Shown one piece after another: positions 26,596 to 63,779 of a DNA stretch of 64,000 bases (position 1 is the first letter of the stretch; every line of letters begins with the position of its first letter). Where the stretch lies: the NCBI GenBank assembly GCA_964016885.1, contig OZ024762.1:6758001-6822000 (forward strand). The letters run 5' to 3'. The notes below the pieces were generated by a model. It was given only the letters and a program-made list of their open reading frames with translations, was not told the origin of the DNA and did not search any database. The position numbers and the translations under genes were made by a program. Origin of the DNA: Eledone cirrhosa (taxonomy: Eukaryota).

Positions 26596-26596
26596 G

Positions 26597-34590: not shown

Positions 34591-34591
34591 T

Positions 34592-34633
<42 letters not shown>

Positions 34634-36361: not shown

Positions 36362-36560
36362 CATCATCATCATCATCATCATTTCATTTTACGTCCACTT
36401 TTCCCTGGTTGCACGGTAAAAAAGCACCCACCACTCACTGTAAATGAGGTTGGTGTTAGGAAGGGCATCCAGCTGTAGAAATCAAGCCAGAATCAGTTCC
36501 CGTCCCACCCTTGCAAGCAGGGAAAAGTGGACGTAAAATCATGATGACGATGATGATGAT
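36362..36560. mobile_element. SINE A 3' half bounded by inverted tail-B copies
   Basis: attttacgtccacttttccctg on the left, cagggaaaagtggacgtaaaat on the right. Confidence 0.85.
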
Positions 36561-36626
36561 ATATATATATATATATATATATATAAGAGAGTATTGAAGT
36601 TTGCTTGAAGCATTATGGAATAATAG

Positions 36627-36818
36627 GTAAATATCTTTAAGTCGTTTGGAAGCCTCGACAATGCAAATGGGTAAATCTCCTTCATTCCTCTACACGTCTT
36701 ATACACGCCACGCATCTCAACGTACACCCACTTACATCTCTCTCTCCACCACCGGATCTTGTTACCCGGAGATTTACCCATTTGCATTGTCGAGGCTTCC
36801 AAACGACTTAAAGATATT

Positions 36819-36821
<3 letters not shown>
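36627..36821. repeat. Perfect 54-bp inverted repeat with 87-bp spacer, next to (TA)n
   Basis: 36627-36680 is the exact reverse complement of 36768-36821. Confidence 0.93.
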
Positions 36822-36876
<55 letters not shown>

Positions 36877-37109
36877 CCATTTTTAAAACTTTCCTCCCAA
36901 AGTTATCCACTATTAATTATGCGATAAATATTTGAAATAAATGTCCACAAAATGAAACCAGTGTTTAGATAATTTCTGTTACATCATTCTAGAATGTTAA
37001 ACATTAACCAGTCTAGTATTATAGTAGCATGGGTGGTTTCAGGTGGTTTAGTACAAATATGGCTGATTGGTGATGTTCTAGTATTGGCAGGTGGTCTGAT
37101 TGTATAAGG

Positions 37110-38245
37110 CCAACAACAACATCACCATCACCACTAATAACAACACCACCACCAACAACAACATCATCACCACCACCACTATCGCCAACAACATCATCAC
37201 CACCAACAATACCACCACCACTATCACCAACACCACAAACAACCATTTAAGCAATCAAACCAACACTATCATCAGCATCACCAACATCAAAAACAACCAT
37301 TAAGCCATCAAACCAACACCACCACCACCAACAACAACAACGATTAAGCCATTAGCGCCACCACCACCAACCATTAAGCCATCAAACCAACACCACCACT
37401 ACCACCACCACCACCACCACCAACCATTAAGCCATCAAACCAACACTACCACTACCACCACCACCACCAACACCACCAACAACCATTAAGCCATCAAACC
37501 AACACCACCATCACCACCACCACCACTACCACCAACACCGCCATCACCACCACTAACACTACCACTACCACCACCACCACCAACAACCATTAAACCATCA
37601 AACCAACACTACCACCAACACTACCACTACCAACACCATCAACAACCATTAAGCCATCAAACCAACACTACCACTACCACCACCACCAACACCACCAACA
37701 ACCATTAAGCCATCAAACTAACACCACCATCACCACCGCCACCACTACCACCAACACCACCACCACTAACACCACCACCACCACCACCAACAACCATTAA
37801 GCCATCAAACCAACACTACCACTACCACCACCACCAACACCACCAACAACCATTAAGCCATCAAACCAACACCACCATCACCACCGCCACCACTACCACC
37901 AACACCACCACCACCACCAACAACCATTAAGCCATCAAACCAACACCACCATCACCACCGCCACCACTACCACCAACACCACCACCACCAACAACCATTA
38001 AGCCATCAAACCAACACCACCATCACCACCGCCACCACTACCACCAACACCACCACCACCAACAACCATTAAGCCATCAAACCAACACTACCACTACCAC
38101 CACCACCAACACCACCAACAACCATTAAGCCATCAAACCAACACCACCATCACCACCGCCACCACTACCACCAACACCACCACCACCACCACCAACAACC
38201 ATTAAGCCATCAAACCAACACTACCACCACCACCACCACCACTAC
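37110..38245. repeat. ACC-rich minisatellite punctuated by a conserved 20-mer aaccattaagccatcaaacc (~14 copies)
   Basis: Direct reading. Confidence 0.92.
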
Positions 38246-38464
38246 ACTTGTGATCAGTGCTACTTCAAAAGACTTACCAAAGACTGTAGTTGCCCCCCCC
38301 CCCCCCCACACACACACACCTCTAAACTGTTATTACCGTTGTAGTAATAGCAGTAATGAACATTATTTGGTCTTTCTTTTCAATCAAAATATAAATATAT
38401 ATATTTATTTATTTACATATACATATACACATATATATTTACACTCACATATGAATATATATTT

Positions 38465-39528
38465 ATATATGTGTGTGTGTATAAATCTATATGCCTATAT
38501 ATATATATTTATATATATGTGTGTGTGTGTATAAATTTATATGCCTATATATATATATATATATTTATATATATGTGTGTGTGTGTATAAATCTATATGC
38601 CTATATATATATATATTTATATATATGTGTGTGTGTGTATAAATTTATATGCCTATATATATATATATATTTATATATATGTGTGTGTGTGTATAAATTT
38701 ATATGCCTATATATATATATATATTTATATATATGTGTGTGTGTGTATAAATCTATATGCCTATATATATATATTTATATATATGTGTGTGTGTGTATAA
38801 ATTTATATGCCTATATATATATATATATTTATATATATGTGTGTGTGTGTATAAATCTATATGCCTATATATATATATTTATATATATGTGTGTGTGTGT
38901 ATAAATTTATATGCCTATATATATATATATATTTATATATATGTGTGTGTGTGTATAAATTTATATGCCTATATATATATATATATATTTATATATATGT
39001 GTGTGTGTGTATAAATTTATATGCCTATATATATATATATATTTATATATATGTGTGTGTGTGTATAAATTTATATGCCTATATATATATATATATTTAT
39101 ATATATGTGTGTGTGTGTATAAATCTATATGCCTATATATATATATTTATATATATATATTTATATATGTGTGTGTGTGTGTATAAATCTATATGCCTAT
39201 ATATATATATTTATATATATGTGTGTGTGTGTATAAATTTATATGCCTATATATATATATATATTTATATATATGTGTGTGTGTGTATAAATCTATATGC
39301 CTATATATATATATTTATATATATATTTATATATGTGTGTGTATAAATCTATATGCCTATATATATATATTTATATATGTGTGTGTGTGTGTGTGTATAA
39401 ATCTATATGCCTATATATATATATTTATATATATATTTATATATGTGTGTGTGTGTGTGTGTATAAATCTATATGCCTATATATATATATTTATATATGT
39501 GTGTGTGTGTATAAATCTATATGCCTAT

Positions 39529-39614
<86 letters not shown>

Positions 39615-39620
39615 ATATTG
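38465..39620. repeat. ~50-56-bp (GT)(TA) minisatellite anchored by ataaat(c/t)tatatgcc
   Basis: Direct reading. Confidence 0.93.
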
Positions 39621-39672
39621 TCCCACCCTTGCAAGCAGGGAAAAGCAGACGTATGATGATGATGATGATGAT

Positions 39673-39707
<35 letters not shown>

Positions 39708-39859
39708 AGTGCGTGTGTATATATATGTGCGTGTGTATATATGTGTGTGTGTGTATATGTGTTTGTGTATACACACACACATATATAAAGGTGTATATGT
39801 GTGTGTATATATATATATATATAGACACATATATGTGTTTGTCTGTACACACACACATA

Positions 39860-39914
<55 letters not shown>

Positions 39915-39954
39915 CTATATATGTGTTTGTGTGTACACACACACATATATAAAG

Positions 39955-39989
<35 letters not shown>

Positions 39990-40206
39990 CAGACACTTAT
40001 ATATGTGTTTGTGTGTATGTATAAATATATATATTAGCAGAGATAGAGATGAAGGAAGAGACTCGTTCATCTGTTTTAAGTGTGTGTGTGGGTGGGGGAG
40101 TGTTCTAATGTCTTTCATATTACATGGAGAGGCTGAAACAGCAATAATGATACATATATTCTACATTAACAAATGGTCATGTGTGTATATATATATATAT
40201 ATATAG

Positions 40207-40256
<50 letters not shown>

Positions 40257-40351
40257 ATATATATACATTTTAATATATATATGTATAAATATATATTATA
40301 TAAATACATATAAATATATGAATACACATATATACATGTATATATATGTAC

Positions 40352-40395
<44 letters not shown>

Positions 40396-40580
40396 TTATA
40401 TATATATATATATATATATATGTGTATATTTATATATATATATATATATATGTATATTTATATATATATATATATATATATGTACGTGTATATATATATA
40501 TATATATATATTCATAAATAAATACATGCTAGTGTGGAAGATGGATGTTAAACAATAATGAAGATGATGCTATATATATA

Positions 40581-40652
<72 letters not shown>

Positions 40653-41199
40653 TACACACATATATGCATATGTATATACATACATATACATATAGATATA
40701 TTTATATATGTATATAGTTGACTGATGAGAGAAAAGAGTACTTAATACCAAAGTGGAGTTTAAATATTGATTTATTATGGCTAAATAATGAGTCTTATTA
40801 CTCTGGAATTTCACCTGCCCACTTACAGGATCGTCAGCTATAGCTCTTGTCTTGATATATATATATATATTAGAGAGGCAGAGAGATAGAGAGAGAGAGA
40901 TAGATAGATAGAGAGAGAGAGAGGCAGATAGATAGATAAATATATAGAGAGAGAGAGAGTGGCAGACACAGAGAGAGAGAGAGCGAGAGAGAAAGAGGCA
41001 GACAGAGAGAGAGGTAAAATCCTGACCACGACACTAAACAGTTTCGGCTTGTCCCAGCACCGCAGACCCACATGCATACACTCTCTCTTTCTGTATGTAT
41101 ATATGTATATATATATATATATGAGAGATGACCCCTTAGCCTTTGTCAAGGCAGAATTCTAGGAGAAGGAAAACTCTGATATAATACCTGCAACCCTGA

Positions 41200-41532
41200 T
41201 GGTATCCAATGATGTTGACTTGTTCTTCTTTTTGGTAAATATCATCTTGGTTAAGAGAGTGGGACTGGCTTTGTGCAGTGCCTTTGCTCACTATAAAAGC
41301 TTCACGGCACAGGCATTGCTTTATATCTGGAGATCTCTCTGCACTTGTCGTCACATGGTACCATGGGCCCAGCACTATGTGTCAATAATTGTCACAGGTG
41401 TAGTGTTTGTACCAGAGTTTTCAAGTCGCTGGCTGGACTAAAAAGTCACTCGTTCAGCGCATCGGTAGGGGTTCTCCTACATGGATATAAAGTAGTGGCC
41501 GTACTCGAAAACGAGTTGGCAGCCACCACCAT
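41200..41532 (+). mobile_element. Decayed LINE 3' end with C2H2-like finger (RTE-like)
   Basis: HRCSVCTRVFKSLAGLKSH; 3' end resembles 45370-45415. Confidence 0.6.
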
Positions 41533-41559
41533 ATATATATATATATATATCATCATATA

Positions 41560-41713
41560 CGCCATGCTTTCCAACATAGTTACGTCCCTTTACGATCTGA
41601 GTTCAAATCCCGCCGAGGTTGACTTTGCCTTTCATCCTTACGGGGTCGATAAAATAAAGTACCAGTAATGCACTGGGTAATTGCTGGCCTTGTGCCTAAA
41701 GTAGAAACAATTA
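41560..41713 (+). mobile_element. SINE family B, 5' truncated
   Basis: Matches family B consensus. Confidence 0.88.
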
Positions 41714-42289
41714 TACATACAAGCATACAAACATCACATAAATACACACATTATATATATATATATATATATATATGCCCACCATTTTTTAAATTTCCCT
41801 CCTAAAGTTGTATATCAATAGTCATTGTCTAGATACTGTTCCTCACCAAATAAATTTTCTTTCAATCTTATCAAAGATCTTGTATTGGCCCAACACAGCG
41901 CCCACATCAGACACCACACCCAGCTGAAACTCAACACCACACCCTACCATTTCCTGCTCATTTCATGCACAAATTCAGCATTTACAGATGCACACATTCA
42001 AAATCCCCTACCAACACCACAACTTCATAGATACCATTTCATAAACTGAAATACAAGTTATTAGGGCGTTGAATTTAATGCTTTTGTATTTGTTTTTGCC
42101 CTCTGTACTCTGAGTTCAAATCTCACCAAGGTCTGTGTTTTGTACCCTCTTCAGGTCGATATAGTACCCATCCTCTGAGCAGGGCCATACTTTCACCTGT
42201 TGAGGCCCTAAGCTATATTAAATTTGAGGTCCTTCTTTAAAAAAATTTTTTTAAATAATTTTTAATAATTATACATCATTATTATTTGT

Positions 42290-42570
42290 GAATTGGCAGT
42301 ATCAGTAGAGGGTTGGACGCCATGCTTTCTAGCATAGTTACGTCCCTTTACGGTTTGAGTTCAAATCCCGTCAAGGTTAACTTTGCCTTTCATCCTTACG
42401 GGGTCGATAAAATAAAGTACCAGTAATACACTGGGTAATTGCTGGCCTTGTGCCTAAAGTAGAAACAATTATTATTTACGTCCCTTTCATCCTTCCGGGA
42501 TCGATAAAATAAAGTACCAGTAATACACTGGGATAATTGCTGGCCTTGTGCCAAAAAGTAGAAACAATTA
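42290..42570 (+). mobile_element. SINE family B plus tandem 3' half
   Basis: Full copy, then a repeat of cctttcatcc...gtagaaacaatt. Confidence 0.88.
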
Positions 42571-44739
42571 ACCTAAGCTATAGGTTATTTAGTTTATAGG
42601 TGAGTCCAGTACTACTGCCTTTGAGGTTAATGTTGATTCTCTGTGCCCTATAAATATTCCATGGAAATTGTTCTGATGAGCTTTCCCCTTTGTTACCTTA
42701 TGAGTTTAAACAGAGCAGCAAATTGGCAGATCACATCCTTTCACAGTTGAACTTCCTAACTGGAATCCCAAATTCTATTCTCATAGTTTCTTCCCTCTCA
42801 CGTCTCACCTATAGAATTCTCTTCCAGTGTATTGCTTTCCTCACCATTACAATTTGCAAAAAATTTAAAAGCAACATCAATCATCATCAGCTCTCCCTCC
42901 TTGAATTATGTTTTCTCTGTCTTGCCCTTCTCCCTTCTCGGTAACTCCTTGCATTTTAGTGGCTTTATTGCCTTGCTTTGGGGTGATTAAATTTTTAAAA
43001 AGTAATAATAGAGTACCAGTCCAGTACTGGGATCAATTCTTCCAAGGAAGTTAAGTTTGCATTTCATCCACTTGAGGCTTGAAAGTACTGGGGTCAATTC
43101 TTCCTTTGGAGTCAAGTTTGTATTTCATCCCCTCAAAGTCACTTAACTCTAGTGTCAGTCCAGTACTGGGGGGGTTCTTCCTCAACCTCTTATTTATCAC
43201 TTTCTCTCTCTCTCACTCACTCGTTCTATCTCCCTTTCTTTCTCTGGAATAAACTGGACTCTGCCAGGTTTAAAATGCCCAGGTTGGTGTCCCTACAACT
43301 CCATTGGGTGGGTTGGTACCAAAAGTGTTAAATGATGGATCTGTGTGTGTGCGTGTGTGTTTGTGTGTGTGTGTATGAATATGTGTGTTTGTGTGTGCAT
43401 GTATACATTTGTTGGGCATATGTATGTGTTTGTATAAGTATGTGTGCATGCTTTGGGACTTATGTATGAGTCTGTAAGCGTGAGTGTGTATGTTTTGCGA
43501 TGTGTGTATAAGCATGAGTTGGGTATGTGTTTGTTTGTCTGTGTGTGTGCAGGCTTTTGGATATTAGTGTGCATGTATGCACATGCATTTGTGCCTGACT
43601 GCATGCATTTGTTTGAGAGCATGTGAGAATGCATTTGTGAATTAGTGCATGTGCACATACTTATGCATGAGTGCGTACACATGCAATTAGATATGGATAC
43701 ATGTGTTTGCACATAAGTGGCATATGGCGTACATTTGTGCATGTGTGTGTGTGTGTTTGTGTAAAACAGTTTGTGTACATATGTACATAAATAAATATGT
43801 GTGTGTGTATATGTGTGTGTAAAAGAGTTTATGTACAAACATACATGCATAAATGAGTATGTGTGCGTGTATAAAAGAATGTGTTTACATACATACATAA
43901 ATGTGTGTGTGTGTTTGTGTGTGCGCGTGTACATATATATATATAAATGAGTATGCGTATGTGTAAAAGAGTGCATACATACATGCATAAAAGTGTGTGT
44001 GTACTTTGCATGAGTGTGTGAGTGAGTGTGGAAAAGTGTGTGTGTATTAGAGAGAGAGAGTGGTGAAGGAGCTTGGCTTAGTGGTTAGGGTGTTAACCTC
44101 ACAATCATAAAGTTTGACTTCCGATGGCACATTGTGGCCTTGAGCAAGACACTTTATTTCCCAGGCCTCTCAGTTAGGGAAAAGACTGAGTTGTACCAGT
44201 AATTTAATAGGTTGATGGGTTTTAAAGATGGTAGCTTAGTTTTTGCAGCTGACACAACCTCACAGATATATAAAAAATATATGTAAAATATGTATGTATG
44301 TATGTATGTATATATGTGTGTGTGTATGCACATATATATATATGTGTGCGTGTGTGTGTGTGTGTGTGTCTAAACATATACGCACATATTTATATGTATG
44401 TATGTCAAACCTGTTAACTCTCCCCGTTTTGAGGCTCTTTTTTCATGGAATTCCCTATTTGGGTTTTTAGAGGTTGGCAGGTCTGGTTTGTATGTATGTG
44501 TATACATGTATGTATATATGTATTATACATGTATGTATATATGTATTGTATCAAGCAATATCTTCACATTTGCTGCTGCTGCTATTACTAAATATGAGAA
44601 GAGAAGGGACCACAGGTTTTCAACAAGAATGTTTTATATACAAGATATTACAACAACAACAACAAGAAGCTAAAACAGGCGTTACCCCACCCCATCTTAC
44701 ATACATTATAACAACAATTATAATGTATGTCCAAGGGCA

Positions 44740-44927
44740 GTGGATTGGCAGTATCGGTAGAGGGTCGGACGCCATGCTTTCCAGCATAGAGTTACGGCCC
44801 TTTACGATCTGAGTCCAAATCCTGCCGGGGTTGACTTTGCATTTCATCCTTACGGGGTCGATAAAATAAAAGTACCAGTAATGCACTGGGTAATTGCTGG
44901 CCTTGTGCCTAAAGTAGAAACAATTAG
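44740..44927 (+). mobile_element. SINE family B copy
   Basis: Matches family B consensus. Confidence 0.9.
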
Positions 44928-44964
44928 TTTCAACAACAGTTTTAAGGCCATTTCGATCTAAAAG

Positions 44965-45415
44965 CAGGGGTCAAGATAACTGGGAAGACATTGCTTTAGA
45001 TCGATCATCTTTGAGGAAAACAGTAGGGTCGAAGTATACATGATATTACTTTATCTGAATTCTCAGGGGCTCAAAACAACTTTATGTGCAATGAGTGCGG
45101 CTGGATTTTCCTCAGCAAAGTTGGTCTTAGAACTTATCATAGAAGCCATGTACAAAATGTTGCTGATTATGGTCTCTTTTTTTCTAATGGACGTGTGGAA
45201 AACAATGTGTCTCGGCCAGTGGACCCCAAAGCCATTTGAAAACTCACCAAAACAAAACAGGAAACCAATGAGGAAGTAATGTTCATCACTGCAGCATATC
45301 CAAAAAGGAATGTAAATCCTTTGCAGGGCTAATAAGTCATGTTTGTGCCACCCATGTGTGAGAGGGGGATCAGGTGGTGCCAATTCTTGAAATAGAGAGA
45401 CAGCCATCATATTGA
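44965..45415 (+). mobile_element. Decayed RTE-like LINE C-terminus with about three C2H2 fingers
   Basis: DNWEDIALDRSSLRKTV; FMCNECGWIFLSKVGLRTYHRSH; CGKQCVSASGPQSHLKTH; KECKSFAGLISH, spread over frameshifts. Confidence 0.72.
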
Positions 45416-45429
45416 TATATATGTACATA

Positions 45430-45870
45430 ATCATCATTTTACGTCCGCTTTTCCCTGCTTGCAAGGGTTGGACAGGTCCTATTCAGCACAGCATCTCTCC
45501 ACTTGTCACGTACCTTTGTCATCTCCTCGGTGACTTTCAGTCACCTGAGGTCTGCTCTCACCACCTCCGCCCATGTTTTTCGTGGTCTACCTCTACTGCA
45601 TCTTCCTTCTACTGGGATTTCTTGGCACTTCTTCACCCAACGGTCATCTTCCATGCACATCATATGTCCATACCATCTCAGCCTTCTCTCTTGCACACCA
45701 CAACTGATCCCTCTTATACTCAGTTTCTTTCTCAACTCGTCTATGCTTGGTTGTTCACGCACATTTACATTGCACATCCAACGGAGCATACTTGCTTCAT
45801 TTCTCTCCAGCTGTCACTTATCTTCTGCAGTTGCTGCCATGTCTCATTACCATGCTGCATCGCGCATCTC
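45430..45870 (-). mobile_element. RTE subfamily 2 3' end with tail B
   Basis: MLRWMCNV...LRWYGH...GRPRKTWAEVVRADL. Confidence 0.92.
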
Positions 45871-46429
45871 ACACATATATATATGTATACACATACATTC
45901 TATATATACATGTATGTGTGAATGTACACCAATTGATCTCATATACAGACAACAGAGAAACAGATTCTTTTTTTTAACTCTTAACATTGTGTAATGATTT
46001 AAAATAAAATATTTAAAAAGCAAGCTTTTTAATTCAAATATTTATAGTATCTTTACTAGAGATGATCATTGTAAAAATTTATAGTCAGTGTTGTTTCTAC
46101 TTTTCTAGAATGTCTTGCTAATGTCCTTTGTTAAGTCAAATGTTTATAGTATCTTTACTTGTGGAGAGATAATTGTGAAAATTTGTAGTATTAGATAAAA
46201 AAAAAACTTTCATTTTTATTGTGATGCAGTCATAGCGCAGTTTTCTACTTTTCTAGAATGTCTTGCTAATTGGTTTCATGTGGTACAGGATGTTAAGAGT
46301 TAATGAAGACCAAAGAGATGGCAACTGAAGACAGGTAAAAATTACAGAAGGTTGAGGTAGGTGATAAGTTAAAGGAATATAAGCAAAATATCATTACCTT
46401 GGCCACTGCTTTCAACATCTTACCCACTA

Positions 46430-46705
46430 TGGGGTGCATCTGAGATATACCACCCAGTTGAATGGCTGATATAGCGGGTATCACTGGCTGGCTCTTCTCT
46501 GTGGCACTGCTATCGCAGTCTTGTTTGCCATGGAGCACAACTGAGATAGACCACCCAGCCAAGGTTTATAGAGTTTGTCCTATGAGGGCTAAAGGTTGAT
46601 GTAACAGGTATCACTGGCTGTTCTCTGGCACTGCTATCGCAGCCTTGTCTGCCATGGGACACAGCTAAGATATACCACCCAGTTAATAGTTATAGTTTGT
46701 CCCTT
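46430..46705. repeat. Degenerate ~130-bp direct repeat
   Basis: ggtatcactggctg...ggcactgctatcgcag...accacccag twice. Confidence 0.8.
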
Positions 46706-47194
46706 CTCTATTTACCAACCCTGTTTTTTCTCTCTCTTCTTGTTTCTAAATATATATACAAAAGAAGGAGTAGCAGATTAAGATCAGAAAGAAGAGGAGG
46801 CACAAAAGAGAACAGATAGTCATTGAGGTCACAGAATGTGTGAGAAAAGAACTTTGACGAACTAATGAATAATTAGTAATAGAGATAAAGTGAAAAAGTA
46901 AAAATTATATGGTATGGGTGTTTCTTTTTATTGGCAATACTGGCAACATGGCCATCCCTAAATATAACAATAACGGCTTCAAAACACATAAGGAACCTTG
47001 TAAAAGAATTACATAAATATATATATACAAAGTGTGTCAAAATAATCATCTGATTGCAAAAGGTTATATTTTTTAAACAAATGAACATATAATCATGCAG
47101 AAACTTGTACAATATAATAAAGGGAGTGCTGGACTGTGTCCTGAATATATCTTTTTAGCCCGTTTGTAAAATAAGTTGGATTACTTTGAATAAA

Positions 47195-47376
47195 TAATTG
47201 TTTCTACTTTAGGCACAAGGCCAGCAATTACCCAGTGCATTACTGGTACTTTATTTTATCGACCCCGTAAGGATGAAAGGCAAAGTCAACCTCGGCGGGA
47301 TTTGAACTCAGATCGTAAAGGGACGTAACTATGCTGGAAAGCATGGCGTCCGACCCTCTACCGATACTGCCAATCC
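47195..47376 (-). mobile_element. SINE family B copy (young)
   Basis: Close reverse complement of 44740-44927. Confidence 0.9.
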
Positions 47377-47814
47377 TAATGAATGAATATTACATAATTT
47401 ATGTACTAAATTTCATAACTCTTGATTAATATAAATAATTTTATTGCTTATTTCAAGATTCACTTCTTTTAAAATTTTCAAATGTCAATACTTCCAGTTA
47501 TGATATAATGGACTCTATATTATATCGCTTTTATAAATCTTCATATATTTGCATTGTTATTTTCATTTTCATAAAATTTTGCCGTAATGCAGTTTATATA
47601 TAATATCGTCTTTTTTAAAATATATCATAGATTACTTTACTGATTACAGAAGACAGTGTAACACAGTCTCTCTTCAATTTATGTGCATATTCTCAATTAC
47701 GATTTTATTTGACGTATCATATCTACATGCATATATATTTGCATATAATAACAATATGCACACTACACATGCTAGCTGAAAACCACCCAAAGGATGGTTT
47801 TCTGCTAGTACAAT

Positions 47815-47949
47815 ATAAGGTTTTATTTACAATTTCTACAAATGCTCAATATGCCCTCCTCTGAACAGATGAGATACCTCTACATGATAGTCAAACTCAT
47901 CCCTTACTCAAGTGAGTTTGTCTAATGAATCTATTTGGTACACCCTGTA
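47815..47949 (-). mobile_element. Tc1/mariner deletion derivative
   Basis: Terminus TA-cagggtg on minus; VRDEFDYHVEVSHLFRGGHIEHL* resembles a transposase C-terminus. Confidence 0.65.
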
Positions 47950-48072
47950 TATATAAAGATTTATATACAATACCTGACCCAGAATATACAGAAATACCTC
48001 AGTTCTTCATCCCATATACTTTTTCTCACTTTCAGCACCACATCGTTATAAATAAACAAAAGAACATTTTTC

Positions 48073-48125
48073 ACTTACCTAAAATTGAAAACAGAAAAAC
48101 AAAACCATTATTGAATAAATAAAAA
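48073..48125 (-). promoter_or_regulatory. Candidate recursive splice site (3'ss immediately followed by 5'ss)
   Basis: Minus strand ttttgtttttctgttttcaattttAG|GTAAGT; no other AG for ~110 nt upstream. Confidence 0.6.
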
Positions 48126-48373
48126 AATAGTTATTGATCAGGTAATAACATTAACAAATAAAACAAAATCATTTTTAAATTTGATAAATCTTTTGAAGAA
48201 TTTTCTTTTTTCTCAAAAAAAAAAAAAGAAAAAAAGATAGACAAGATCCCAGACCTCATTTACCAAGTGAAGTGGAACTTGTCATATCTGACCAGGGAAA
48301 CAATGTTTCTCTGTTTTTTAGCCTCTTGGATTGTTTTTGTCATTATTCCTTTATCATATAACTTTTATGCAAT

Positions 48374-48436
48374 AAACACCTGATGATGTCACCGGGATCT
48401 TACGGAACTTGGTCACTGAAATGTACATAGTTTTTG
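48374..48436 (+). ncRNA. Minimal type I hammerhead-like motif in a probable Penelope pseudo-LTR
   Basis: aaacac-CTGATGA-hairpin-GAAA with palindromic atgtacat, then a, gttttt; aataaa follows. Confidence 0.55.
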
Positions 48437-48648
48437 CTATAATAAATCTTTGAAGGAATTTCACCAGTCCGGCCTCCTGTGATTTTACTCAATGATAATT
48501 AACTCCGTTCTCGCACCACCAACAAGATTCAACATCGAAGATGGATGAGTTGCATAACGTTGAGTGCTTTTCCTAATATTACATCATGGTTGACTATACA
48601 GAATGACCAGTTCTATCCAGTGGTGAACCAACAAACCTACATGAATGA

Positions 48649-48680
<32 letters not shown>

Positions 48681-48833
48681 ATATATATTTTTTGATACCC
48701 AGATTCCTGATGATTTCTAAAGAATGAAACAGTTCTAGTCCTGTAGAATCTCATCTATATTAAAACTTTTATACTCTGCAATGTATTGAGTACCTTACTT
48801 ACTGTGGTTACCTCCGATTCAACCCGGAATAAC

Positions 48834-48894
<61 letters not shown>

Positions 48895-50119
48895 GCTAAA
48901 TCATTACAGGATGTTAAATGGAAATATAGGTGGTTTTTAGGCAGCTTGGTATTGAAAGGGTTAAAAAGTGAGAAGAAATTGTGGATTTTATGTGGAATTT
49001 GCAAGTGATGAATAGAAACTGTTGCCATGGATACAGAGGTAGGAGAACAACAGCAACAGTAGGTAGACAGTAAATGTTTGAAATTTCTGATAAAGATAAA
49101 TTGGTTAGTTAAGTTGACATAGAAGAGAGAGAGAGAGAGAGAGAACAAAAGAGAGAGAGGGTCAGAGAGGGAAAGATATAGAAAGTAGGGAGGGAGAGGG
49201 AGAGGGTGAGATGAATTGGACACAGAGGAGAAGGGAAAAGACAAAGAGTGGTGGTGATGGTGGTGGTGGTGATGGCGGTGGTGATGATTGTGGTGGTGAT
49301 GGTGATGGTGGTGATTGTGGTGGTGGTGATGGTGGTGTTGGTGGTGATGGTGATGGTGGTGATGATGACTGTGGTGTTGGTGGTGATGATGATATCCTTA
49401 TTAACCCCATGGGTTTTAACATAGTAAACATAAAAAGAGGGGTTACAATCCCAGGGTAGCTGGACAAAGTTATATAAGGGTAACAATATTATACAATATC
49501 CTTACTTGATATGATAAAAACATTTAGGGTTAACCACACACAAGTGAAAACCTACTAGTTTAACTGAATCAGAACACCCCCAACGCCTTCTCCATTCTGC
49601 CTGCCGGGGCTATGGGGCAGCCAACACGTGGGACCCCATTTGATCACTACCCAGAGAGATGGGGGTGATGACAGTGGGAGTTCCTAGTTCGGACACATTA
49701 CACCCGTCATGTGGATCATGTCAGTTAACCATGAATGTGAAATGAAATTACATTCAAGAGAATTGATTCACGGTGGATTAATGTTTTGTGTCCCAGTACA
49801 TGACTGGTACTATATTAATATGTATCAAGCTCGTTACCAGGACGAGTTATTACATTGATAACATCTGTAATATGTTTGTTTTACATCAATTTATTTGCTT
49901 AGTCCTCTTCATCCTTCATGCATTATATCTCTGCTCTTTTTAATTTAAGCTCAATAGATTCTGATTTAAGACCACCGTGTTTAAATGGTAGGTACCCCCA
50001 GTCCTATCATGGAAAGCAATTGGTAATAAAATGTCCTCTTGAAGAACTCAACCCACTGCCCAGTCCAGGAATGAAGCCCATGGCCTTATGATTGTGAGTC
50101 CGACACACTAAAAGAATCA

Positions 50120-50730
50120 ATCGACAAAATCCCAGACCTCATTAGCTTACCAAGTAGAGTGGAACTCATCAAATCTGACCAAGGAAACAATGTTTTGTCT
50201 TCTCCATTGCTGATACTATTTCCCAGTCAATGTGTGTGAACGACCAAGCATAGATGAGTTGAGAGAGAAACTGTGTATAAGAGGGATAAGTTGTAGTGTG
50301 TGGGAGAGAAGACTGCGTTGGTATGGACAGGTGATGTGCATGGAGGATGACCGCTGGGTAAAGAAGTGCCAAGAAATCCCAGTAGAAGGAAGATGTGGTA
50401 GAGGAAGACGTGGTAGAGGAAGACGTGGTAGAGGAAGACCACGAAAACCATGGACGGAGGTGGTGAGAGCTGACCTCAGATCACTGAAGCTCACGGAGGA
50501 GATGACGAAGGACCGTGACGAATGGAGAGATGCTGTGCTGAATAGGACCCCGTCCCACCCTTGCAAGCAGGGAAAAGCGGACGTAAAATGATGATGATGA
50601 ACTGACAGAAAGAGCAATGTGAAATGAAGTGTCTTGCTCAAGGACATAACACATCGGCCAGTCCAGGAATCAAACTTTCAAACTCACTATTGCGGATTCA
50701 ATTCTCTAACCACTAAGCCACACGCCTCCA
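50120..50730 (-). mobile_element. SINE family C split by an RTE insertion
   Basis: 3' part 50120-50228, head part 50600-50730. Confidence 0.82.
50229..50600 (+). mobile_element. RTE subfamily 2 3' fragment with 15-bp internal triplication and tail B
   Basis: RLRWYGQVMCMEDDRWVKKC, (gtggtagaggaagac)x3, (gat) tail. Confidence 0.92.
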
Positions 50731-50744
50731 CAACACACCACACG

Positions 50745-50930
50745 GTGGATTGGCAGTATCGGTAGAGGGTCGGATGCCATGCTTTCCATCATAGTTACGT
50801 CCCTTAACGATCTGAGTTCAAATCCCGCTGAGGTTGACTTTGCCTTTCATCCTTACGGGGTCGATAAAATAAAGTACCAGTAATACAGTGGAATAATTGC
50901 TGGCCTTGTGCCAAAAAGGAGAAACAATTA
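50745..50930 (+). mobile_element. SINE family B copy
   Basis: Matches family B consensus. Confidence 0.88.
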
Positions 50931-51139
50931 TGAGATGTGGCATTACATCAGCAACAACACAAGATGATGACATCAACAATAGGTGTTTATTATAAGATTC
51001 ATCCAATTAAGTGAGATTAATAATTACATAACATTGTATTTAGACAAAGATTTGATACGGGTCGAATTCAACTTAATCTTTTCAATTCTCCCACCCACAA
51101 TACAATCCTTTCATTTCCATCCTACATACTACCACTATA

Positions 51140-51336
51140 CGAGGGTTGGCTGAAAAGTTGAAGAGTGACTATGAAGGAGTGATGTTAGAGCTGTGAAATC
51201 TTGCAAGCATTAATTTCAACTCTTCTTCTTAATAACTGAATTGTTTCTTTATTGGCACTATGTTGAAGCATAAACCACATTTGGTCATTCCATGAGAGTA
51301 TCTTGGTCAGCCTATGAATTTTTCAACCAACCCTCG
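51140..51336. mobile_element. Mariner-type MITE
   Basis: TA on both flanks; TIR cgagggttggctgaaaagtt / aatttttcaaccaaccctcg. Confidence 0.88.
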
Positions 51337-51734
51337 TATTCTCAGGTTAGGTTTTTGCCTGTTACCATGTAACCAGGTACAACCTGCTTCATAGTCGAGT
51401 GGTCGGTGACTAAACTAGCTCCCCCACCAGACCTTGGTCAGGTGACGAGGATAAGTGGAGCCCCAGCAGCACAAAAAGACAAGACCTGTTAAAAGGGTGG
51501 ATTAACTCCTCAGAATCAACGGCCATCCACCCCAACTATGGGTTAAATAGCCTCACCAACCTGCATTTGACCAACCATGGTGAGTCCAGCTAAACCCCTA
51601 AAGACATGACTAACACCAAATAGAAAGCGGTGGAGGTCAACTAGGGAGGGGTTCTTCCATCAGGAGTAAGAAGGTCCTGGATTCGATTGGATACCACCAC
51701 TAACTTACTTATCATTACCTTCTGTAGCCAAAAG

Positions 51735-52350
51735 GTTAGGGTGCTGGACTCATGATCATAAGGTTGTGGGTTCGATTCCTGGACTGGGCAACACATTACA
51801 TTCAGCAAGATGCCTCATTTCAAATAGTTTTTCATGGCAGGACCGGGGCTCTAATCATTAAAACATCCAAGAAACCTTTTATGAGTCAGATAAACCTACA
51901 TATATATGAGCTGAATAACAATATGATAGGACTGGTGTCCCTATCATTAACTCAACCAAGAAACTTTTGATACAGCCCCATAGGATGCCAGCTAAACCTA
52001 CATAGATATGAGCTGAATAACAATATGATAGGACTGGTGTCCCTATCATTAACTCAACCAAGAAACTTCTGATACAGCCCCATAGGATGCCAGCTAAACC
52101 TACATAGATATGAGCTGAATAACAATATGATAGGATTGGTGTCCCTATCATTAACTCAACCAAGAAACTTCTGATACAGCCCCATAGGATGCCAGCTAAA
52201 CCTACATGGGTGTGAGCTGTAAGAACATAAGACTGGGATCCATATCATTAAAACACCTGAGAAACCTCCAAAGAGATGCAACCTCATAGGAGACCGACTA
52301 AACCTACATAGCTGTGAGCTGTAACAACTTAATAAGACTGGGCCCTTATC
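51735..52350 (+). mobile_element. SINE family D with 102-bp tandem body
   Basis: Head with B-box gggttcgattcc; taaacctaca at 51891, 51993, 52095, 52197. Confidence 0.85.
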
Positions 52351-53612
52351 ACTAAAAATGACAGCTTTTACTCTAATACTGCAAATGTTGACATTACAGT
52401 CCAAGCCAGGACTTGGGCTACTGTCTTCCTAGATGGGTCGTCGGCTGAGGTCACATTCGCGACCTTCCATCATAACTTTATGCAAGAACCATTGAAGACA
52501 GTGAGCAGAGGATGGGGAGAAAGGGGAGGATGAAGTAGTGGAGGAGGGGAGGCAGAGGAAGATGAAGAGGCCTAGGTGGGGAGGTGGTGGAAGAGGGAGC
52601 AATAAATAACATCCCTTCTCTGTACACACATACATAATAAGGAGCTGAAAAGATATTTCCTTCTCATTTGGCTAAAGTCAGCTATAGAGAGAGTGAGAGG
52701 GAGAAAGTGGCAGAGAGAGGAAAGACAGACAGAGACAGGAGAGGAAGGGACAGAGGGAGGGAGAGGGAGGGAGAAAGTGGCTGAGAGAAGCGGGAGAGAG
52801 GGAGGGAGAAAGTGGCTGAGAGAAGGGGGAGAGAGAGAGAGGAAGAAAGAATAGAGAGAGAGTTAGAGAGAGGAGGGGGGGGGGCGAGAGAGAAGGAGAT
52901 AGAGAGGGAGAGAGAGATAGAGAGAGGGGGGAGAGAGAGAGGGGGGAGAGAGAGAGGGGGAGAGAGAGAGAGGGGGGGTGGAGAGGGGGAGATAGGGAGG
53001 GAGAGAGAGAGAGAGAGAGAGAGATTAATGGTGAGGTGTCATCTCTAACGAGCCAAGCCAAATATAACACTTTGATGATGTCCCATTAGTAATGAAATTA
53101 AATCTCCCCTATCACCCCCCACCTTCCCTATACAGTTGAGTTGGGAACTGAGAGTTTAAACATATCAGGTTTTAAACAGGAGGCTGACATTTAAAGCACG
53201 ACTGCTAACTTCTTTTGACATTGAATAAGGCCACTGACAAATAATGGCCTAACACACAGCCTGGAAGATCTTTTACGATATAATTTCAAATTGATTGCTT
53301 AAAGCCACAGGATCTCCATTGAAATTCATATTTGATAACACACAGAGAGATGCAAATATGGTCTTAATCTATCCACTGGCAGTATATATAATACATACAT
53401 CTAATTTTCTGTTAATAAAGAATCTCTCCCAGCTGTTTTAGTTACTGGCAATGGGTTCTTAAGTCAAATCACAAATAGAGCAAGGAACTTCAGAAGATAT
53501 ATCAAATTAGCTCTTCATCTCCTGAACCACATGAAACTCCGTTAACATGGCATTGGAAAAGTACAAAACAACACTATGTCTGCATCACAGTACAAATTCA
53601 ATTCTTTATTCA

Positions 53613-53952
53613 TCATTTCATTTTCATTTCATTTTACGTCCGCTTTTCCCTGCTTGCAAGGGTGGGACGGGAACTGATGCTGGCTTGATTTCTACAGCTG
53701 GATGCCCTTCCTAACACCAACCTCATTTACAGTGAGTGCTGGGTGCTTTTTTGCCGTGGCACCTACACGACCACTTTGCAGTGGAATGATAGGGACCCCA
53801 GTCCCTATCATCTCATTTCTACAGCTGAGTAAACTGGAGCAACGTGAAATAAAGTGTCTTGCTCAACGAAACAACACATCACCCGGTCTGAGAATTGAAC
53901 TCACAACCTTTCGATTGCAAGGCCAATGCTCTAACCACTAAGCCATGTGCCT
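53613..53952 (-). mobile_element. Full SINE family A with tail B
   Basis: Close reverse complement of 4963-5303. Confidence 0.9.
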
Positions 53953-53964
53953 CCATATTCGAAT

Positions 53965-54360
53965 ATTGAAAATGTTTGCAATAATCCGTCCACTAATAAA
54001 GATACTACACACTTTTCAATTAACAAACCAGATGACACCACATTAGTAAGATATCCTTGAATGGAGCAAAGTGGTATTACTCTAACACTGTAAATTTTTA
54101 TAACAATCAGTCCACTAATAAAGATACTATAAATATTTGAATTAACAAACTACATGAGTAAGACATTATTGAAAAATACAAAACAACACTATGACTGTAT
54201 CTCATTAAAGATTAAGTCTTTATCATAATACTGAAAATGTTTGCAATAATCTGTCCACGAGTAAAGATATTATAGACATTTGGATTAACAAACCGCATGA
54301 AACCACATTAGCAAGATATTCTTGAAAAGTACAAAACAGAACAGTGATTGCCTCATATTA
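53965..54360. repeat. Degenerate ~130-bp tandem and dispersed repeat family
   Basis: gtccactaataaagatacta...ttaacaaac; homologs near 31860, 35090 and, inverted, 46020-46280 and 55570-55850. Confidence 0.65.
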
Positions 54361-54735
54361 AGGGTTAAACATAGACAGTGTCTTTCATTGGAAATATGGT
54401 AATGAAAGGGTTAAACATAGGTAGTGTCTTTCATTGGAAATATGGTAATGAAAGGGTTAAACATAGGTAGTGTCTTCCACTGGAAATATGGTAATGAAAG
54501 GGTTAAACATAGGTAGTGTCTTTCATTGGAAATATGGTAATGAAAGGGTTAAACATAGGCAGTGTCTTTCATTGGAAATATGGTAATGAAAGGGTTAAAC
54601 ATAGGTAGTGTCTTTCATTGGAAATATGGTAATGAAAGGGTTAAACATAGGCAGTGTCTTTCATTGGAAATATGGTAATGAAAGGGTTAAACATAGGTAG
54701 TGTCTTCCATTGGAAATATGGTAATGAAAGGGTTA
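54360..54735 (+). repeat. 46-bp MITE-terminus array (~8 copies)
   Basis: Same unit as 7330-7830 with a ttggaaat variant. Confidence 0.93.
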
Positions 54736-55861
54736 TTGTATTAATATTACAGACAAGAACAAGAGTTTTAAGTCATTTTCCAATACCTGACAGACGCTTC
54801 ATTTTATTAGAACCAGAAGGATGAAAGGCAATGTTGACCAAAATTACCAATAATAATAATAATAATAATTATATGGTTATATGTTGTGTGACAAAAGTGA
54901 GAAATACAGAGACAGAGAGAGCAAGAGAGGGAGAGAGACAGACAGATATAGAGAGAGTGGAGAAGGAGGAAAGAGTGGGAGAGAGAGAGAGAGACAGATA
55001 AACAGAGAGAGAAAGAGAAATACAGAGAGAAAGAGAAATACAGAGAGAGAGAGAAACAAACAGAACTTGCAAGAGAGGCTGACAGGTAGACAGACATAAA
55101 GAGAGTGGGGGAGAGAGAGAGAGTGAGCAAAAGAGACAGGCTGACAGAATATTGATTGTAGTGGAGAGTGCTCTAAAGTAGCAACAACAGCAACAACAAC
55201 AACAAGATGCCAGACCAGTATGGCTTTCACAACAAGTAGATTCCTATTAGAGTCTTCAACTTTCTTCTCCTTATTAAACGTGAACATATTTCTTGCCTGC
55301 GATACTATTTTTATATGTCGCTGACAAAATTTATTATACAATTATCATGGTACTATCTCTCAGCTACAAAGATATAGAACACCACCAACAACTGTGGAAT
55401 TGATTGAAACTAGCATACAATATGGCACTGAAAATTGTTTAGTCTGGAAGATATATATCTTCAGAATTATGACTAGGTGACTCACTTTCACACACACACA
55501 CACACATGCTTTCCTACATGTTTTTAACGCTTAACAAACTGTATTGATTTACCAAACAATATCCAAATATGGGTTTGTTAATTCAAATGTTTATAGTACC
55601 TTTACTTGAGGACAGATCACTGAAAAGTTACAGTATTTGTGTAAAGATTTGAATTTTTAATGTGATGCCACCATAGTTCTGTTTTTTACTTTTGGTTTCA
55701 TATAGTTTCTTAATTCAAATGTTTATAGTACCTTTACTAATGGAGAAGCCTTTGTGAAAATGTGCAATATTAGAGTAAAAACTTTACCTTTCAATGTGAT
55801 ACAGTCGTAGTGTTGTTTTGTAATTTTCAATAGTGTCTTGATCATGTGGTTTTTTATTTAA

Positions 55862-56079
55862 CCCTTTAGCATTTAAACCGCCCATATCCGGCCAGAATTC
55901 TCTCACCTCTTTCTCTTTAAATTGGCTGTAACTGGCCACTCATACTGATGTTAAGGTATTCTCAAAATAAATAATATCAAAATTTCATAGATTCCATATT
56001 ATGTGAGATAATTATGTGAGGTAAAGCATTTACCATGAAAATATAATAGTATATATAGAGTAATGTAAATGCTAAAGGG
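55862..56079. mobile_element. piggyBac-type MITE (family P1)
   Basis: TTAA flanks at 55858 and 56080; perfect 14-bp TIR ccctttagcattta. Confidence 0.92.
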
Positions 56080-56549
56080 TTAAAATATAGCATCTTTATT
56101 AATGGAAAAATCATTGTGAACTTTTGTAATAAGGTAAAGACTAATTTTTAATCTGCTGCAGTCATAGTACTGTGTCATAGAGAATCCCCCTGAGAATTAC
56201 AATAAGGATGTACGGATCTATGGAATGCTATGTGATATCCTTGGGATAGCTGCACTCAAAAACGGATGACTAAAGATTGGATCTGTTTGTTAGTTTTCTT
56301 TGTGTCGTTTCATTTTTCCTTGAGATATACGAGAACAAGATGTAGTCATTTGACCTGTCTAGTCGGAGAATATGTCAACCTGTCTAACCCAAGCAAGCAT
56401 GGAAAATAAATGGATGATGATGATGATGATATTTCAGAGTTGTATATATATGGTGACTTGAGCTGACTTGTTGAAACTAAAGCAATTACAGCATAGAAGA
56501 GTTCTTTTAGTGGTTTTAGCCATTCATAATACACACACACACAGACTTT

Positions 56550-56962
56550 ATTTTAAAGTGTTTATATCTATCTAAAAACCTTCCAACATAACTTTTTGTG
56601 AGAACATTTGTTATGTTCCAAACATCAGTTTAATGAGAAAGTCATATTATTAAATCTATTTAAATTCTTGATAATTCTCAAAATTATTTGAAAATTATAG
56701 GCAGTGTCTTTCATTAGAAATATGGTAATGAAAAAGTTAAACATAGGTAGTGTCTTCCATTAGAAATATGATAATGAAAGGGTTAAACATAGATAGTGTC
56801 TTACATTAGAAATATGATAATGAAAGGGTTAATGATATAGGCAGTGTGTTTCATTAGAAATATGGTAATGAAAGGGTTAAAGGCATAGACACTGTCTTTC
56901 ATTAGAAATATGGTAATGAAAGGGTTAAAGACATAGACAGTGTCTTTCATTAGAAATATGGT
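56550..56962 (+). mobile_element. MITE P2 body plus 46-bp terminal array (~6 copies)
   Basis: Body as at 10945 and 57923; units end gggttaa. Confidence 0.78.
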
Positions 56963-57922
56963 GCAACATAAAAAAAAAAAAGCAACGTTGGAAAGGACTA
57001 TAAATGCTATAAATAGGAGGGAAAGAACAAGGACTGTAAGGTGAGAAAAGAAAGGAGGAAGGGAGAGGGTGACAGACTCTACACCTGAGATTGAGCAGTG
57101 TTTCAGCTGCACCCCATGAACAAAATGGCAAAGGTGGACAACGGCCAGTGACAACAGCCATCCTGCTTTACTGGGTTCCTTCTTCAGCTACTGTCATTCC
57201 AATTTGCCAGTTTACTGTGTTGTTGATACTGCTTTCATTTGGAAATTATTTTGGGAACTTTTACAAGAAAGAAATTCTTTTTTTTTTTTTTTTTTCCACT
57301 CAGCAATTTCTAAATTAATTCTGTTTAAGATTACTGATACCTTGGTAAAGTTTCTCAGCTATAAATAACTTCTTCTTTCCTTAGCTTTCACAACTAAATA
57401 GAATCTCATTACATAGCTTGCCAAAAAACATTATTATTTATTTATTTATGTTGTTGTTCTTGCTGTTGTTGCTGGGGTTTTTTTTTTTTTTTTTTTCCTG
57501 ATAAATCAGTTAATGGTATTTTCCACTAACTTACAACGTAACATCAGAATCTCTTCACCAGAAAGAAATTCCCACTGCAGATGTTAAATTGTGTCATCAT
57601 CGACATCATCATTGTCAATATTATCATCACCATCATCATCATTACTGCCATCATCATCGTTATCACCATCATGTAATGTCCCTTCTTCCATGCTGGCATG
57701 ATCTGGACTACACTGGGTTGAAGTTGACCAGGCACAAGGCCAGCAATATTGGTGGGGGGGGGGGGGGGGTCAATTACAACGACCCCAATACTTTACTAAT
57801 ACTATATTTTATCAATCGACCCTGAAAGGACAAGTTGACCTCAGCGGGATTTGAACTCAGAATGTTGAGAGCTGAAACAAATACTGCTAAATGTTTGACC
57901 AACGTTCTGACAATGCCCTAAA

Positions 57923-58492
57923 CAACTTAAATAACGAGAAAGTTAGTTACTAAATCCCTCTAAATCTTTCATTATCTTCACAATAATTTGAAAATCATAG
58001 TCAGTGTCTTACATAAGAAATATTGTAACAAAAGAGTTAAAGTGTTTATATTTATCTAAAAACCATCATGATTCTATGTAAGAACCTTTGTTAAGTTATG
58101 TTCCAAACACCAACTTAAATAATGAGAAAGTTAGTTACTAAATCCCTCTAAATCTTTCATTATCTTCACAATAATTTGAAAATCATAGTCAGTGTCTTAC
58201 ATAAGAAATATTGTAACAAAAGAGTTAAAGTGTTTATATTTATCTAAAAACCATCATGATTCTATGTAAGAACCTTTGTTAAGTTATGTTCCAAACACCA
58301 ACTTAAATAATGAGAAAGTTAGTTACTAAATCCCTCTAAATCTTTCATTATCTTCACAATAATTTGAAAATCATAGTCAGTGTCTTACATAAGAAATATT
58401 GTAACAAAAGAGTTAAAGTGTTTATATTTATCTAAAAACCATCATGATTCTATGCAAGAATCTTTGTTAAGTTATGTTCCAAACACCAACTT
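57923..58492 (+). repeat. 188-bp tandem x3 of the MITE P2 body
   Basis: Period 188 (57933, 58121, 58309). Confidence 0.92.
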
Positions 58493-58499
58493 ATTTAAG

Positions 58500-58717
58500 T
58501 TTGCATTCTGAGTTCAACACCCTTTCATTGCCATATTTCAAATGAAAGACATTGCCTAGGCTTTTCAAATAATTTTGAAAATGGTGAAAATTTGGAAAGA
58601 TTTAGTAACTAACTTTCTCATTAAATAATGAGAAAGTTAGTTACTAAATCCCTCCAAATTTTCATCATTTTCAAAATGCGATATAGTAATGAAAGGGTGT
58701 TGAACTCAGAAAGCAAA
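58500..58717. repeat. Fold-back palindrome of MITE P2 end plus flank
   Basis: Centre gatttagtaactaactttctcatt-aaat-aatgagaaagttagttactaaatc; outer arms tctgagttcaacaccctttcatt / aatgaaagggtgttgaactcaga. Confidence 0.88.
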
Positions 58718-58944
58718 GTTCAAAAACTAAATGCTACAAAGCACTTTGTTGGATGCTCTACCAATTCTGACAATTCACCACTCTCCCTAACTGATAATAA
58801 ATTGGTTTCTTAGCATAAGTAGAAATATGTGGAAGTCTCTGAATTGTTGGAAGAGCTGTAACCAACATTGCTGCTTGTGAAATAAAAATGGAGTTGATAG
58901 TGAAGTTGACTTTTAGTGATGGTGTAACATCTATGAGGCTGCTG

Positions 58945-61010: not shown

Positions 61011-61059
61011 CTCATTATAATAATAATAATATTGAACATCACCAACATCACCACCACCA

Positions 61060-63541: not shown

Positions 63542-63563
63542 TGTGGTAAATGATGGTTTAAAC

Positions 63564-63775: not shown

Positions 63776-63779
63776 ATGT

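What the first reader, a model, noticed from the sequence alone, without database searches (positions are those of the whole stretch)
47974..48190. Strong recursive-splicing (ratchet) site candidate on the minus strand
Seen: the minus strand reads ...ttattcaataatggttttgtttttctgttttcaattttAG|GTAAGTga (junction 48079/48078). This is a branch-like motif, a long U-rich tract, ~110 nt with no other AG, and a consensus GTAAGT donor directly abutting the acceptor, in sequence that is not part of any repeat I recognised. Downstream donors gag|gtattt and cag|gtattg would define 81- or 105-nt exons with stops in all three frames. Known: AG|GTAAGT ratchet points subdivide very long introns in Drosophila, and vertebrate RS sites are followed by mostly poison RS-exons. 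Inference: the window lies in a giant intron of a minus-strand gene that is spliced recursively. I am not aware of this being described in cephalopods.
Basis: partly seen in the sequence, partly recalled or inferred. Interest (0 to 1): 0.8.

Follow-up and report, generated by a model that had tools for sequence, protein, structure and literature searches.

The report
Ratchet points in giant octopus intron
This fused intron-end/intron-start signal is the first of three evenly spaced copies on the transcribed strand of a 345-kb intron of an octopus Golgi-trafficking gene (GOPC), so the intron is likely cut out in four steps as in flies, a mechanism our literature searches did not find reported for molluscs and that no RNA data have yet confirmed here.

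Summary
The motif is real but unremarkable within the window alone. Context makes the case. The window lies inside a 344,706-nt intron on the sense strand of an octopod GOPC gene, whose flanking exons are contiguous in three homologues. The three best of 2,196 AG|GT sites in this intron, on either strand, are all sense-strand YAG|GTAAGT; this site is the first. They cut the intron into 93.7, 96.0, 93.7 and 61.3 kb (P=0.0015 for evenness). Genome-wide, the strict motif occurs 90 times against 37 for three +5 variants together and 8 for RAG. Neighbours within 1 Mb share a strand in 20 of 20 pairs, and cryptic donors cluster 20-120 nt downstream. Sites 2 and 3 are one 198-nt cassette found only twice, suggesting such sites multiply by short duplication. 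Against: no RNA or cross-species test was possible, this site is the weakest of the three, and sites 2-3 lack a good cryptic donor. The scan noted similar sites before in this genome (titin) and in annelid and urchin DNA. Verdict: likely recursive splice site; known mechanism, new lineage.

The parts
1..64000 (-). The whole window is an internal part of the 344,706-nt intron after the first coding exon of GOPC (G000:C23:6899759 down to 6555054). Upstream coding exon: C23:6899972-6899760, donor GAA|GTAAGT, phase 0. Downstream exon: C23:6555053-6554889. Both exons lie outside the window.
   Evidence: (window place)
48081..48189 (-). 109-nt AG-exclusion zone upstream of the acceptor
48107..48121 (-). 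Loose branch-point candidates (TTTAT at -42 and -38; AATAAT near -30); no canonical CTAAY
48081..48104 (-). U-rich polypyrimidine tract
48073..48081 (-). Ratchet point RP1, TAG|GTAAGT, junction 48079/48078 (C23:6806079), 93,681 nt downstream of the exon donor. Its partners lie outside the window: RP2 at C23:6710123 and RP3 at C23:6616398.
48030..48078 (-). Candidate cryptic RS-exon, 49 nt, donor AAA|GTGAGA (score 1.9); in-frame stop TAA at 48048-48046 in the phase of the upstream exon
47998..48078 (-). Candidate cryptic RS-exon, 81 nt, donor GAG|GTATTT (score 2.5, the best within 120 nt); stop after 10 codons in phase 0
47974..48078 (-). Candidate cryptic RS-exon, 105 nt, donor CAG|GTATTG (score 1.3)

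Best explanation
This is a fused acceptor/donor signal (TAG|GTAAGT), the first of three on the sense strand of a 345-kb octopod GOPC intron, and it likely works as a recursive splice site (ratchet point) so that the intron would be removed in four pieces of 94, 96, 94 and 61 kb. Shown: the motif, the host gene and intron, strand, ranking and spacing of the three sites, and the genome-wide class. Inferred from the Drosophila mechanism: during transcription the acceptor is recognised by exon definition across a short cryptic exon (49 or 81 nt here). The upstream exon, ending GAA, is spliced to the AG. This recreates GAA|GTAAGT, the same donor the exon started with (score 4.5, against 2.5 or less for the cryptic-exon donors), which wins and carries the exon on to RP2, RP3 and the next coding exon, leaving nothing in the mRNA. 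Use of a cryptic donor instead would add a stop after 10 codons and likely trigger nonsense-mediated decay.
For: Host intron: exons A and B are contiguous in 3 of 4 homologues (P0001, P0003, P0004) and tblastn finds no hit between them. Ranking: top 3 of 2,196 AGGT in the intron (1,031 sense, 1,165 antisense) are the three sense sites, scores 17.2, 16.7 and 12.5, next best 6.8. Spacing: P=0.0015 that three random cuts keep every piece at or under 96 kb; the first site is at 27% of the intron, flies about 25% for three-site introns (PMC6110457); no periodic self-similarity explains the spacing. Genome class: 90 Y14-N-YAG|GTAAGT against 17 reversed, 37 for GTAA[ACT]T (p=3e-27) and 8 for RAG. Strand: 20 of 20 neighbour pairs within 1 Mb share a strand, against 11 of 20 at 1-5 Mb and 33 of 67 beyond. 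Cryptic donors: 19 of 28 sites have a donor scoring 1.5 or more at +20-120 against 4-8 of 28 in control windows, peak at 40-60 nt; fly RS-exons are about 50 nt (PMC8605326). In the 1.864 Mb fetched, 11 of 38 AG|GTAAGT have a strong acceptor against 1 of 180 GTAA[ACT]T and 4 of 611 permutations (6 of the 11 were known before the regions were chosen).
Against: No RNA evidence and no cross-species conservation test. In the window alone the motif is at chance level. RP1 is the weakest of the three, does not match the strict genome patterns (absent from the list) and has no canonical branch motif. RP2 and RP3 have no donor scoring above -2.6 (RP2, within 360 nt) or -1.2 (RP3, within 215 nt), so they lack a clear RS-exon, and being copies they are not independent events. 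The 95-kb spacing is not general: gaps of 117-187 kb on C4 and 330 kb on C2, and one opposite-strand site scoring 11.3 lies among four minus-strand sites on C4. The O. sinensis entry P0002 begins inside exon B, which may be an annotation break or a transcript starting within the intron. Splice-site matrices were set by hand from recalled metazoan consensus, not trained on octopus data.
Confidence: 0.85

Rival explanations
1. The acceptor is real but opens an expressed exon: a regulated poison exon of GOPC (49/81/105 nt), an alternative terminal exon, or a non-coding exon of an isoform or sense lncRNA starting inside the intron. GTAAGT at its start would be incidental or only a minor route.
For: Downstream donors exist and the exon carries a stop in the reading phase. 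P0002 lacks exon A. RP2/RP3 copies are 98-100% identical over the 110 nt after the junction, as an exon might be. In mammals many RS-exons are expressed (PMC8605326).
Against: Ordinary exons should not start with the exact donor hexamer three times in one intron; genome-wide GTAAGT exceeds each +5 variant about sevenfold. The regenerated donor outscores the cryptic ones. Even spacing is unexplained by this rival.
Confidence: 0.09
2. RP1 is a chance match in AT-rich intron sequence, even if other sites in the genome are true ratchet points.
For: Not above chance in the window; acceptor score 7.2 is reached by 61 sense and 52 antisense AGs in the intron; loose branch point.
Against: Only 7 AG|GTAAGT occur in the intron and about 0.3% of AGs reach that acceptor score, so roughly 0.02 chance sites are expected (my arithmetic). 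RP1 also falls where it halves the 189.6-kb stretch left between the exon and RP2 (93.7 + 96.0 kb).
Confidence: 0.04
3. The motifs are relics of a transposon family that carries splice signals (earlier notes describe GGTAAGT donors in Tx1-type LINEs of this genome), or of tandem duplication of a 94-kb unit.
For: The intron is about 63% repeats; RP2 and RP3 are copies; segments 1 and 3 differ in length by only 44 nt.
Against: RP1 is single-copy and unrelated to RP2 (alignment score 35, shuffled maximum 39). The RP2/RP3 cassette has two copies only. Flanks of 30 genome-wide sites share no common element across the junction beyond two pairs. No excess of self-matches at 94 or 190 kb offset. Transposon insertions would not be confined to one strand.
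Confidence: 0.02

Closest known systems
Drosophila intronic ratchet points with cryptic RS-exons (Ubx, kuz, Bx, luna; bioRxiv 10.1101/006163, part 1 of 2 of the text read; PMC8605326, abstract and introduction read; PMC6110457, passages and part of Results read)
   Same: Tandem acceptor|donor inside a very long intron, sense strand, several per intron, evenly placed, short out-of-frame or stop-bearing cryptic exon near 50 nt, ratchet donor stronger than the cryptic-exon donor, early intron of the gene.
   Different: Scale: fly recursive introns are 11-133 kb with segments of 2.6-63.6 kb (median 16 kb); here 345 kb with 61-96 kb segments. TAG outnumbers CAG (18 of 28). Two of the three sites are copies of one cassette. 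Host is an octopod mollusc. No RNA proof here.
Mammalian recursive splice sites and RS-exons (as summarised in the PMC8605326 introduction; the primary papers were not read)
   Same: Very long intron, RS-exon with premature stop, donor competition.
   Different: Mammals have few fully suppressed intronic sites (nine noted) and thousands of expressed RS-exons; this genome has at least about 100 motif-defined intronic candidates (148 matches against 80 reversed for the Y10 pattern; 90 against 17 for Y14), closer to the fly pattern.

Membership tests
Intronic ratchet point (recursive splice site) | Juxtaposed 3' splice site and consensus 5' splice site (Y-tract YAG|GTRAGT) | tested here: met
Intronic ratchet point (recursive splice site) | Lies on the sense strand within a very long intron, not at an annotated coding exon | tested here: met
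   344,706-nt GOPC intron, no homologue hit between the exons
Intronic ratchet point (recursive splice site) | Sites divide the intron more evenly than chance | tested here: met
   93.7/96.0/93.7/61.3 kb, P=0.0015; one intron only
Intronic ratchet point (recursive splice site) | Short cryptic RS-exon with a downstream donor weaker than the ratchet donor | tested here: inconclusive
   RP1 has weak donors at +49, +81, +105; class-wide enrichment is met; RP2 and RP3 have no good donor
Intronic ratchet point (recursive splice site) | Branch point about 21-36 nt upstream | tested here: inconclusive
   Only loose matches at RP1; CTAAC at -35 at RP2 and RP3
Intronic ratchet point (recursive splice site) | Motif class enriched over controls and strand-biased genome-wide | tested here: met
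Intronic ratchet point (recursive splice site) | Exon-to-site junction reads, sawtooth coverage or recursive lariats in total/nascent RNA | not testable with these tools
Intronic ratchet point (recursive splice site) | Conservation of the motif across related species | not testable with these tools
   No related genomes are held for G000. Within-genome copies keep highest identity near the junction, an indirect hint only.

The most novel reading that the evidence does not exclude
Octopods use recursive splicing on a larger scale of length than flies (segments near 100 kb), and new ratchet points are born by short duplications of a complete ratchet cassette (branch point, tract, AG|GTAAGT and downstream flank, 200-560 nt) into the same intron or another chromosome. 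Such copies would let introns keep swelling with transposons, giving a concrete birth mechanism for ratchet points and a route to giant neural-type genes in cephalopods. Three cassette pairs were seen: GOPC RP2/RP3 (198 nt, 98%, 94 kb apart), a C2 pair (558 nt, 94%, 330 kb apart) and a C1/C3 pair (333 nt, 88%), each with only two full-length copies.
Probability: 0.35. Interest if true: 0.7.

Novelty: new member of a known kind. Interest (0 to 1): 0.48.

Why it matters
It would extend recursive splicing from flies and vertebrates to molluscs, pointing to a bilaterian-wide solution for giant introns. It supplies a mapped, testable locus (one intron, three sites, exact junctions) in animals where long genes are enriched in neural tissue (PMC7222433, passages seen). 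The duplicated cassettes offer a handle on how ratchet points arise and whether they permit intron growth. The mechanism itself is known, so the surprise for a splicing specialist is moderate.

Tried and rejected
In-window chance tests gave nothing. No RNA runs were obtained, so expression and junction use stay open. No coding exon of a host gene was recognised among the 267 ORFs listed for the window or by a first strict exon scan of +/-200 kb, which missed GOPC exon A. Rfam: no match. A 94-kb tandem duplication as the cause of the spacing: rejected. A transposon family as source of the motif class: rejected. Two apparent cassette pairs were dropped: L115/L118 share only AT repeat, and the C4 pair shares about 36 nt at the junction plus AT repeat, with the genome search swamped by simple repeats. 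A fixed 95-kb spacing rule: not supported on C4 or C2, and no host exons could be identified in those 1.0 Mb. The first exon of the neighbouring ROS1-like gene was not located, so the plus-strand site at C23:7069895 is co-oriented with that gene but not shown to lie in its intron. Literature search was too loose to be informative.

Full report
Observation. The minus strand reads tract-TAG|GTAAGT with the junction at 48079/48078. There are 109 AG-free nt upstream, and donors at +81 and +105 give exons with stops in all three frames. The site is single-copy and outside repeats. The branch motif is loose. Taken alone it is not above chance: 46 of 100 shuffles give a similar match, and AGGTAAGT occurs 3 times against 2.95 expected.

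Host gene. The window is G000:C23:6758001-6822000 in a 3.0-Gb genome. I fetched 400 kb on each side. An exon scan found minus-strand exons at 6555-6483 kb; the first is 96% identical to Octopus GOPC proteins, and a homologue carries the PDZ domain. The first coding exon lies at 6899972-6899760. In 3 of 4 homologues its last residues run directly into the exon at 6555053, and tblastn finds nothing between them; the fourth homologue (P0002) starts inside the second exon. The intron is therefore 344,706 nt, phase 0, about 63% repeats, with no assembly gap in the 341.8 kb checked. The finding lies on its sense strand.

Three sites. I scored every AG|GT with hand-set acceptor and donor matrices (recalled consensus). 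Of 2,196 AGGT in the intron on both strands, the top three are sense-strand YAG|GTAAGT at 6806079 (this finding, 12.5), 6710123 (17.2) and 6616398 (16.7); the next scores 6.8. The pieces are 93,681, 95,956, 93,725 and 61,344 nt. Three random cuts keep all pieces at or under 96 kb with P=0.0015. Self-comparison shows no 94-kb periodicity. In the whole 864 kb only one more site passed, at 7069895 on the plus strand. It lies 87 kb upstream of the first matched exon of a plus-strand ROS1/sevenless-like gene, whose first exon I could not place.

Genome-wide class. Y14-N-YAG|GTAAGT occurs 90 times against 17 for the reversed pattern, 37 for the three GTAA[ACT]T variants together and 8 for RAG; a Y10 version gives 148 against 80. 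For strand I used 127 positions: the 100 listed of 148 (C1-C12) and 27 (C13-C24), dropping 5 on small scaffolds. Neighbours within 1 Mb share a strand in 20 of 20 pairs (p=1e-6; about 5 such pairs expected if scattered), against 11 of 20 at 1-5 Mb and 33 of 67 beyond. One of the 20 is a duplicated pair. In the first 30 of the 90 loci (one member of each of two duplicate pairs dropped, leaving 28), 19 have a donor scoring 1.5 or more at +20-120 against 4-8 in control windows, peaking at 40-60 nt. Long AG-free zones are common upstream and long open frames after the junction are rare. These are the features of Drosophila ratchet points and their roughly 50-nt cryptic exons (PMC8605326; PMC6110457; 10.1101/006163).

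Mechanism. Inferred by analogy, not shown: the exon ending GAA is spliced to RP1, recreating GAA|GTAAGT, identical to its original donor. That donor scores 4.5 against 1.3-2.5 for the cryptic-exon donors, so it should win, and the exon ratchets through RP2 and RP3 to the next coding exon. Inclusion of the cryptic exon would add a stop after 10 codons.

Duplicated cassettes. RP2 and RP3 share 198 nt at 98% identity, from the branch region (CTAAC at -35) to about +110, with unrelated flanks, and occur only twice in the genome. RP1 is unrelated to them. Among the 30 loci two more pairs share cassettes: C2 (558 nt, 94%, 330 kb apart, same strand; a 110-nt repeat inside it is multicopy) and C1/C3 (333 nt, 88%, two copies, AT repeats at both ends), with identity highest near the junction. 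Two other apparent pairs were rejected. Short low-copy repeats are frequent in these introns anyway (17 pairs in the GOPC intron), and no matched background was computed, so birth by duplication is a lead, not a result.

Results against. There is no RNA evidence and no related genome. RP1 is the weakest of the three and misses the strict genome patterns. RP2 and RP3 lack a good cryptic donor. In 600 kb of C4 four minus-strand sites are 117-187 kb apart with one plus-strand site (11.3) among them; in 400 kb of C2 two sites are 330 kb apart with none between. No host exons were recognised there. So the 95-kb spacing is local to GOPC.

What is known. Searches for 'recursive splicing' with 'octopus' gave 0 papers; 'recursive splic' with 'cephalopod' gave 1, with both terms only in its reference list; with 'mollus' 2, seen as listings only and on other topics by title and abstract start. 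A search for origin or duplication of recursive sites listed 20 of 33 papers, none on this by title or abstract start. The library lacks most subscription journals, and no supplements were read, so a report in a cephalopod genome paper's supplement cannot be excluded. Earlier notes of this scan describe similar candidates in this genome (titin-like gene) and in annelid, urchin and other invertebrate DNA; they are unchecked and were not counted as support.

Verdict. It works like, and probably is, a Drosophila-type ratchet point (confidence 0.85). The defining RNA and conservation tests remain open. New member of a known kind; interest 0.48.

Noticed in passing
G000:C23:6899972-6481451 (-) and 7156793-7222000 (+); L016, L064-L070, L083-L090: GOPC and a ROS1/sevenless-like gene are head-to-head neighbours here; from recall, GOPC and ROS1 are also near neighbours in the human genome (source of the GOPC-ROS1 fusion), so this may be old microsynteny.
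   Followed up: partly
L044:2013-2209 and L034:8288-8485 (C23:6710013-6710209, 6616288-6616485): 198-nt, 98% identical ratchet cassette with CTAAC branch motif, two copies only, ending in a TAA repeat.
   Followed up: yes
L108/L109 (C2:373.316 and 373.646 Mb); L099/L116 (C1:356.294 Mb, C3:203.097 Mb): Two more duplicated ratchet cassettes; the C1/C3 pair is bounded by AT repeats on both sides.
   Followed up: partly
L055:7895 (C23:7069895, +) and L058:2172-2219 (C23:7094172-7094219, +): Strong plus-strand ratchet-like site with a donor at +32, and a well-formed 48-nt cysteine-containing exon candidate downstream; both may belong to the 5' part of the ROS1-like gene.
   Followed up: partly
C4:228.64-229.24 Mb (L129-L188) and C2:373.29-373.69 Mb (L189-L228): Long stretches with ratchet-like sites and no recognised host exons; probably inside very large genes. 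One opposite-strand strong site at C4:229115286.
   Followed up: partly
C23:6360-6380 kb (+), 6419-6421 kb (-), 6451-6455 kb (-); L071-L080: Exons resembling Raptor (named from recall; the one exon sent to Pfam had no hit), a BTB-domain gene (Pfam hit) and further unassigned minus-strand exons downstream of GOPC.
   Followed up: no
P0002: The O. sinensis GOPC entry lacks the first coding exon and the short exon before the PDZ domain; the first may reflect an annotation broken by a giant intron in that species too.
   Followed up: no
window 1-308 and C23:6757223-6758000; many other arrays: The window is dense in minisatellites and microsatellites (168 Tandem Repeats Finder rows) and LINE fragments; a 5.6-kb array of about 62-nt units lies at C23:6956358-6962000.
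   Followed up: no
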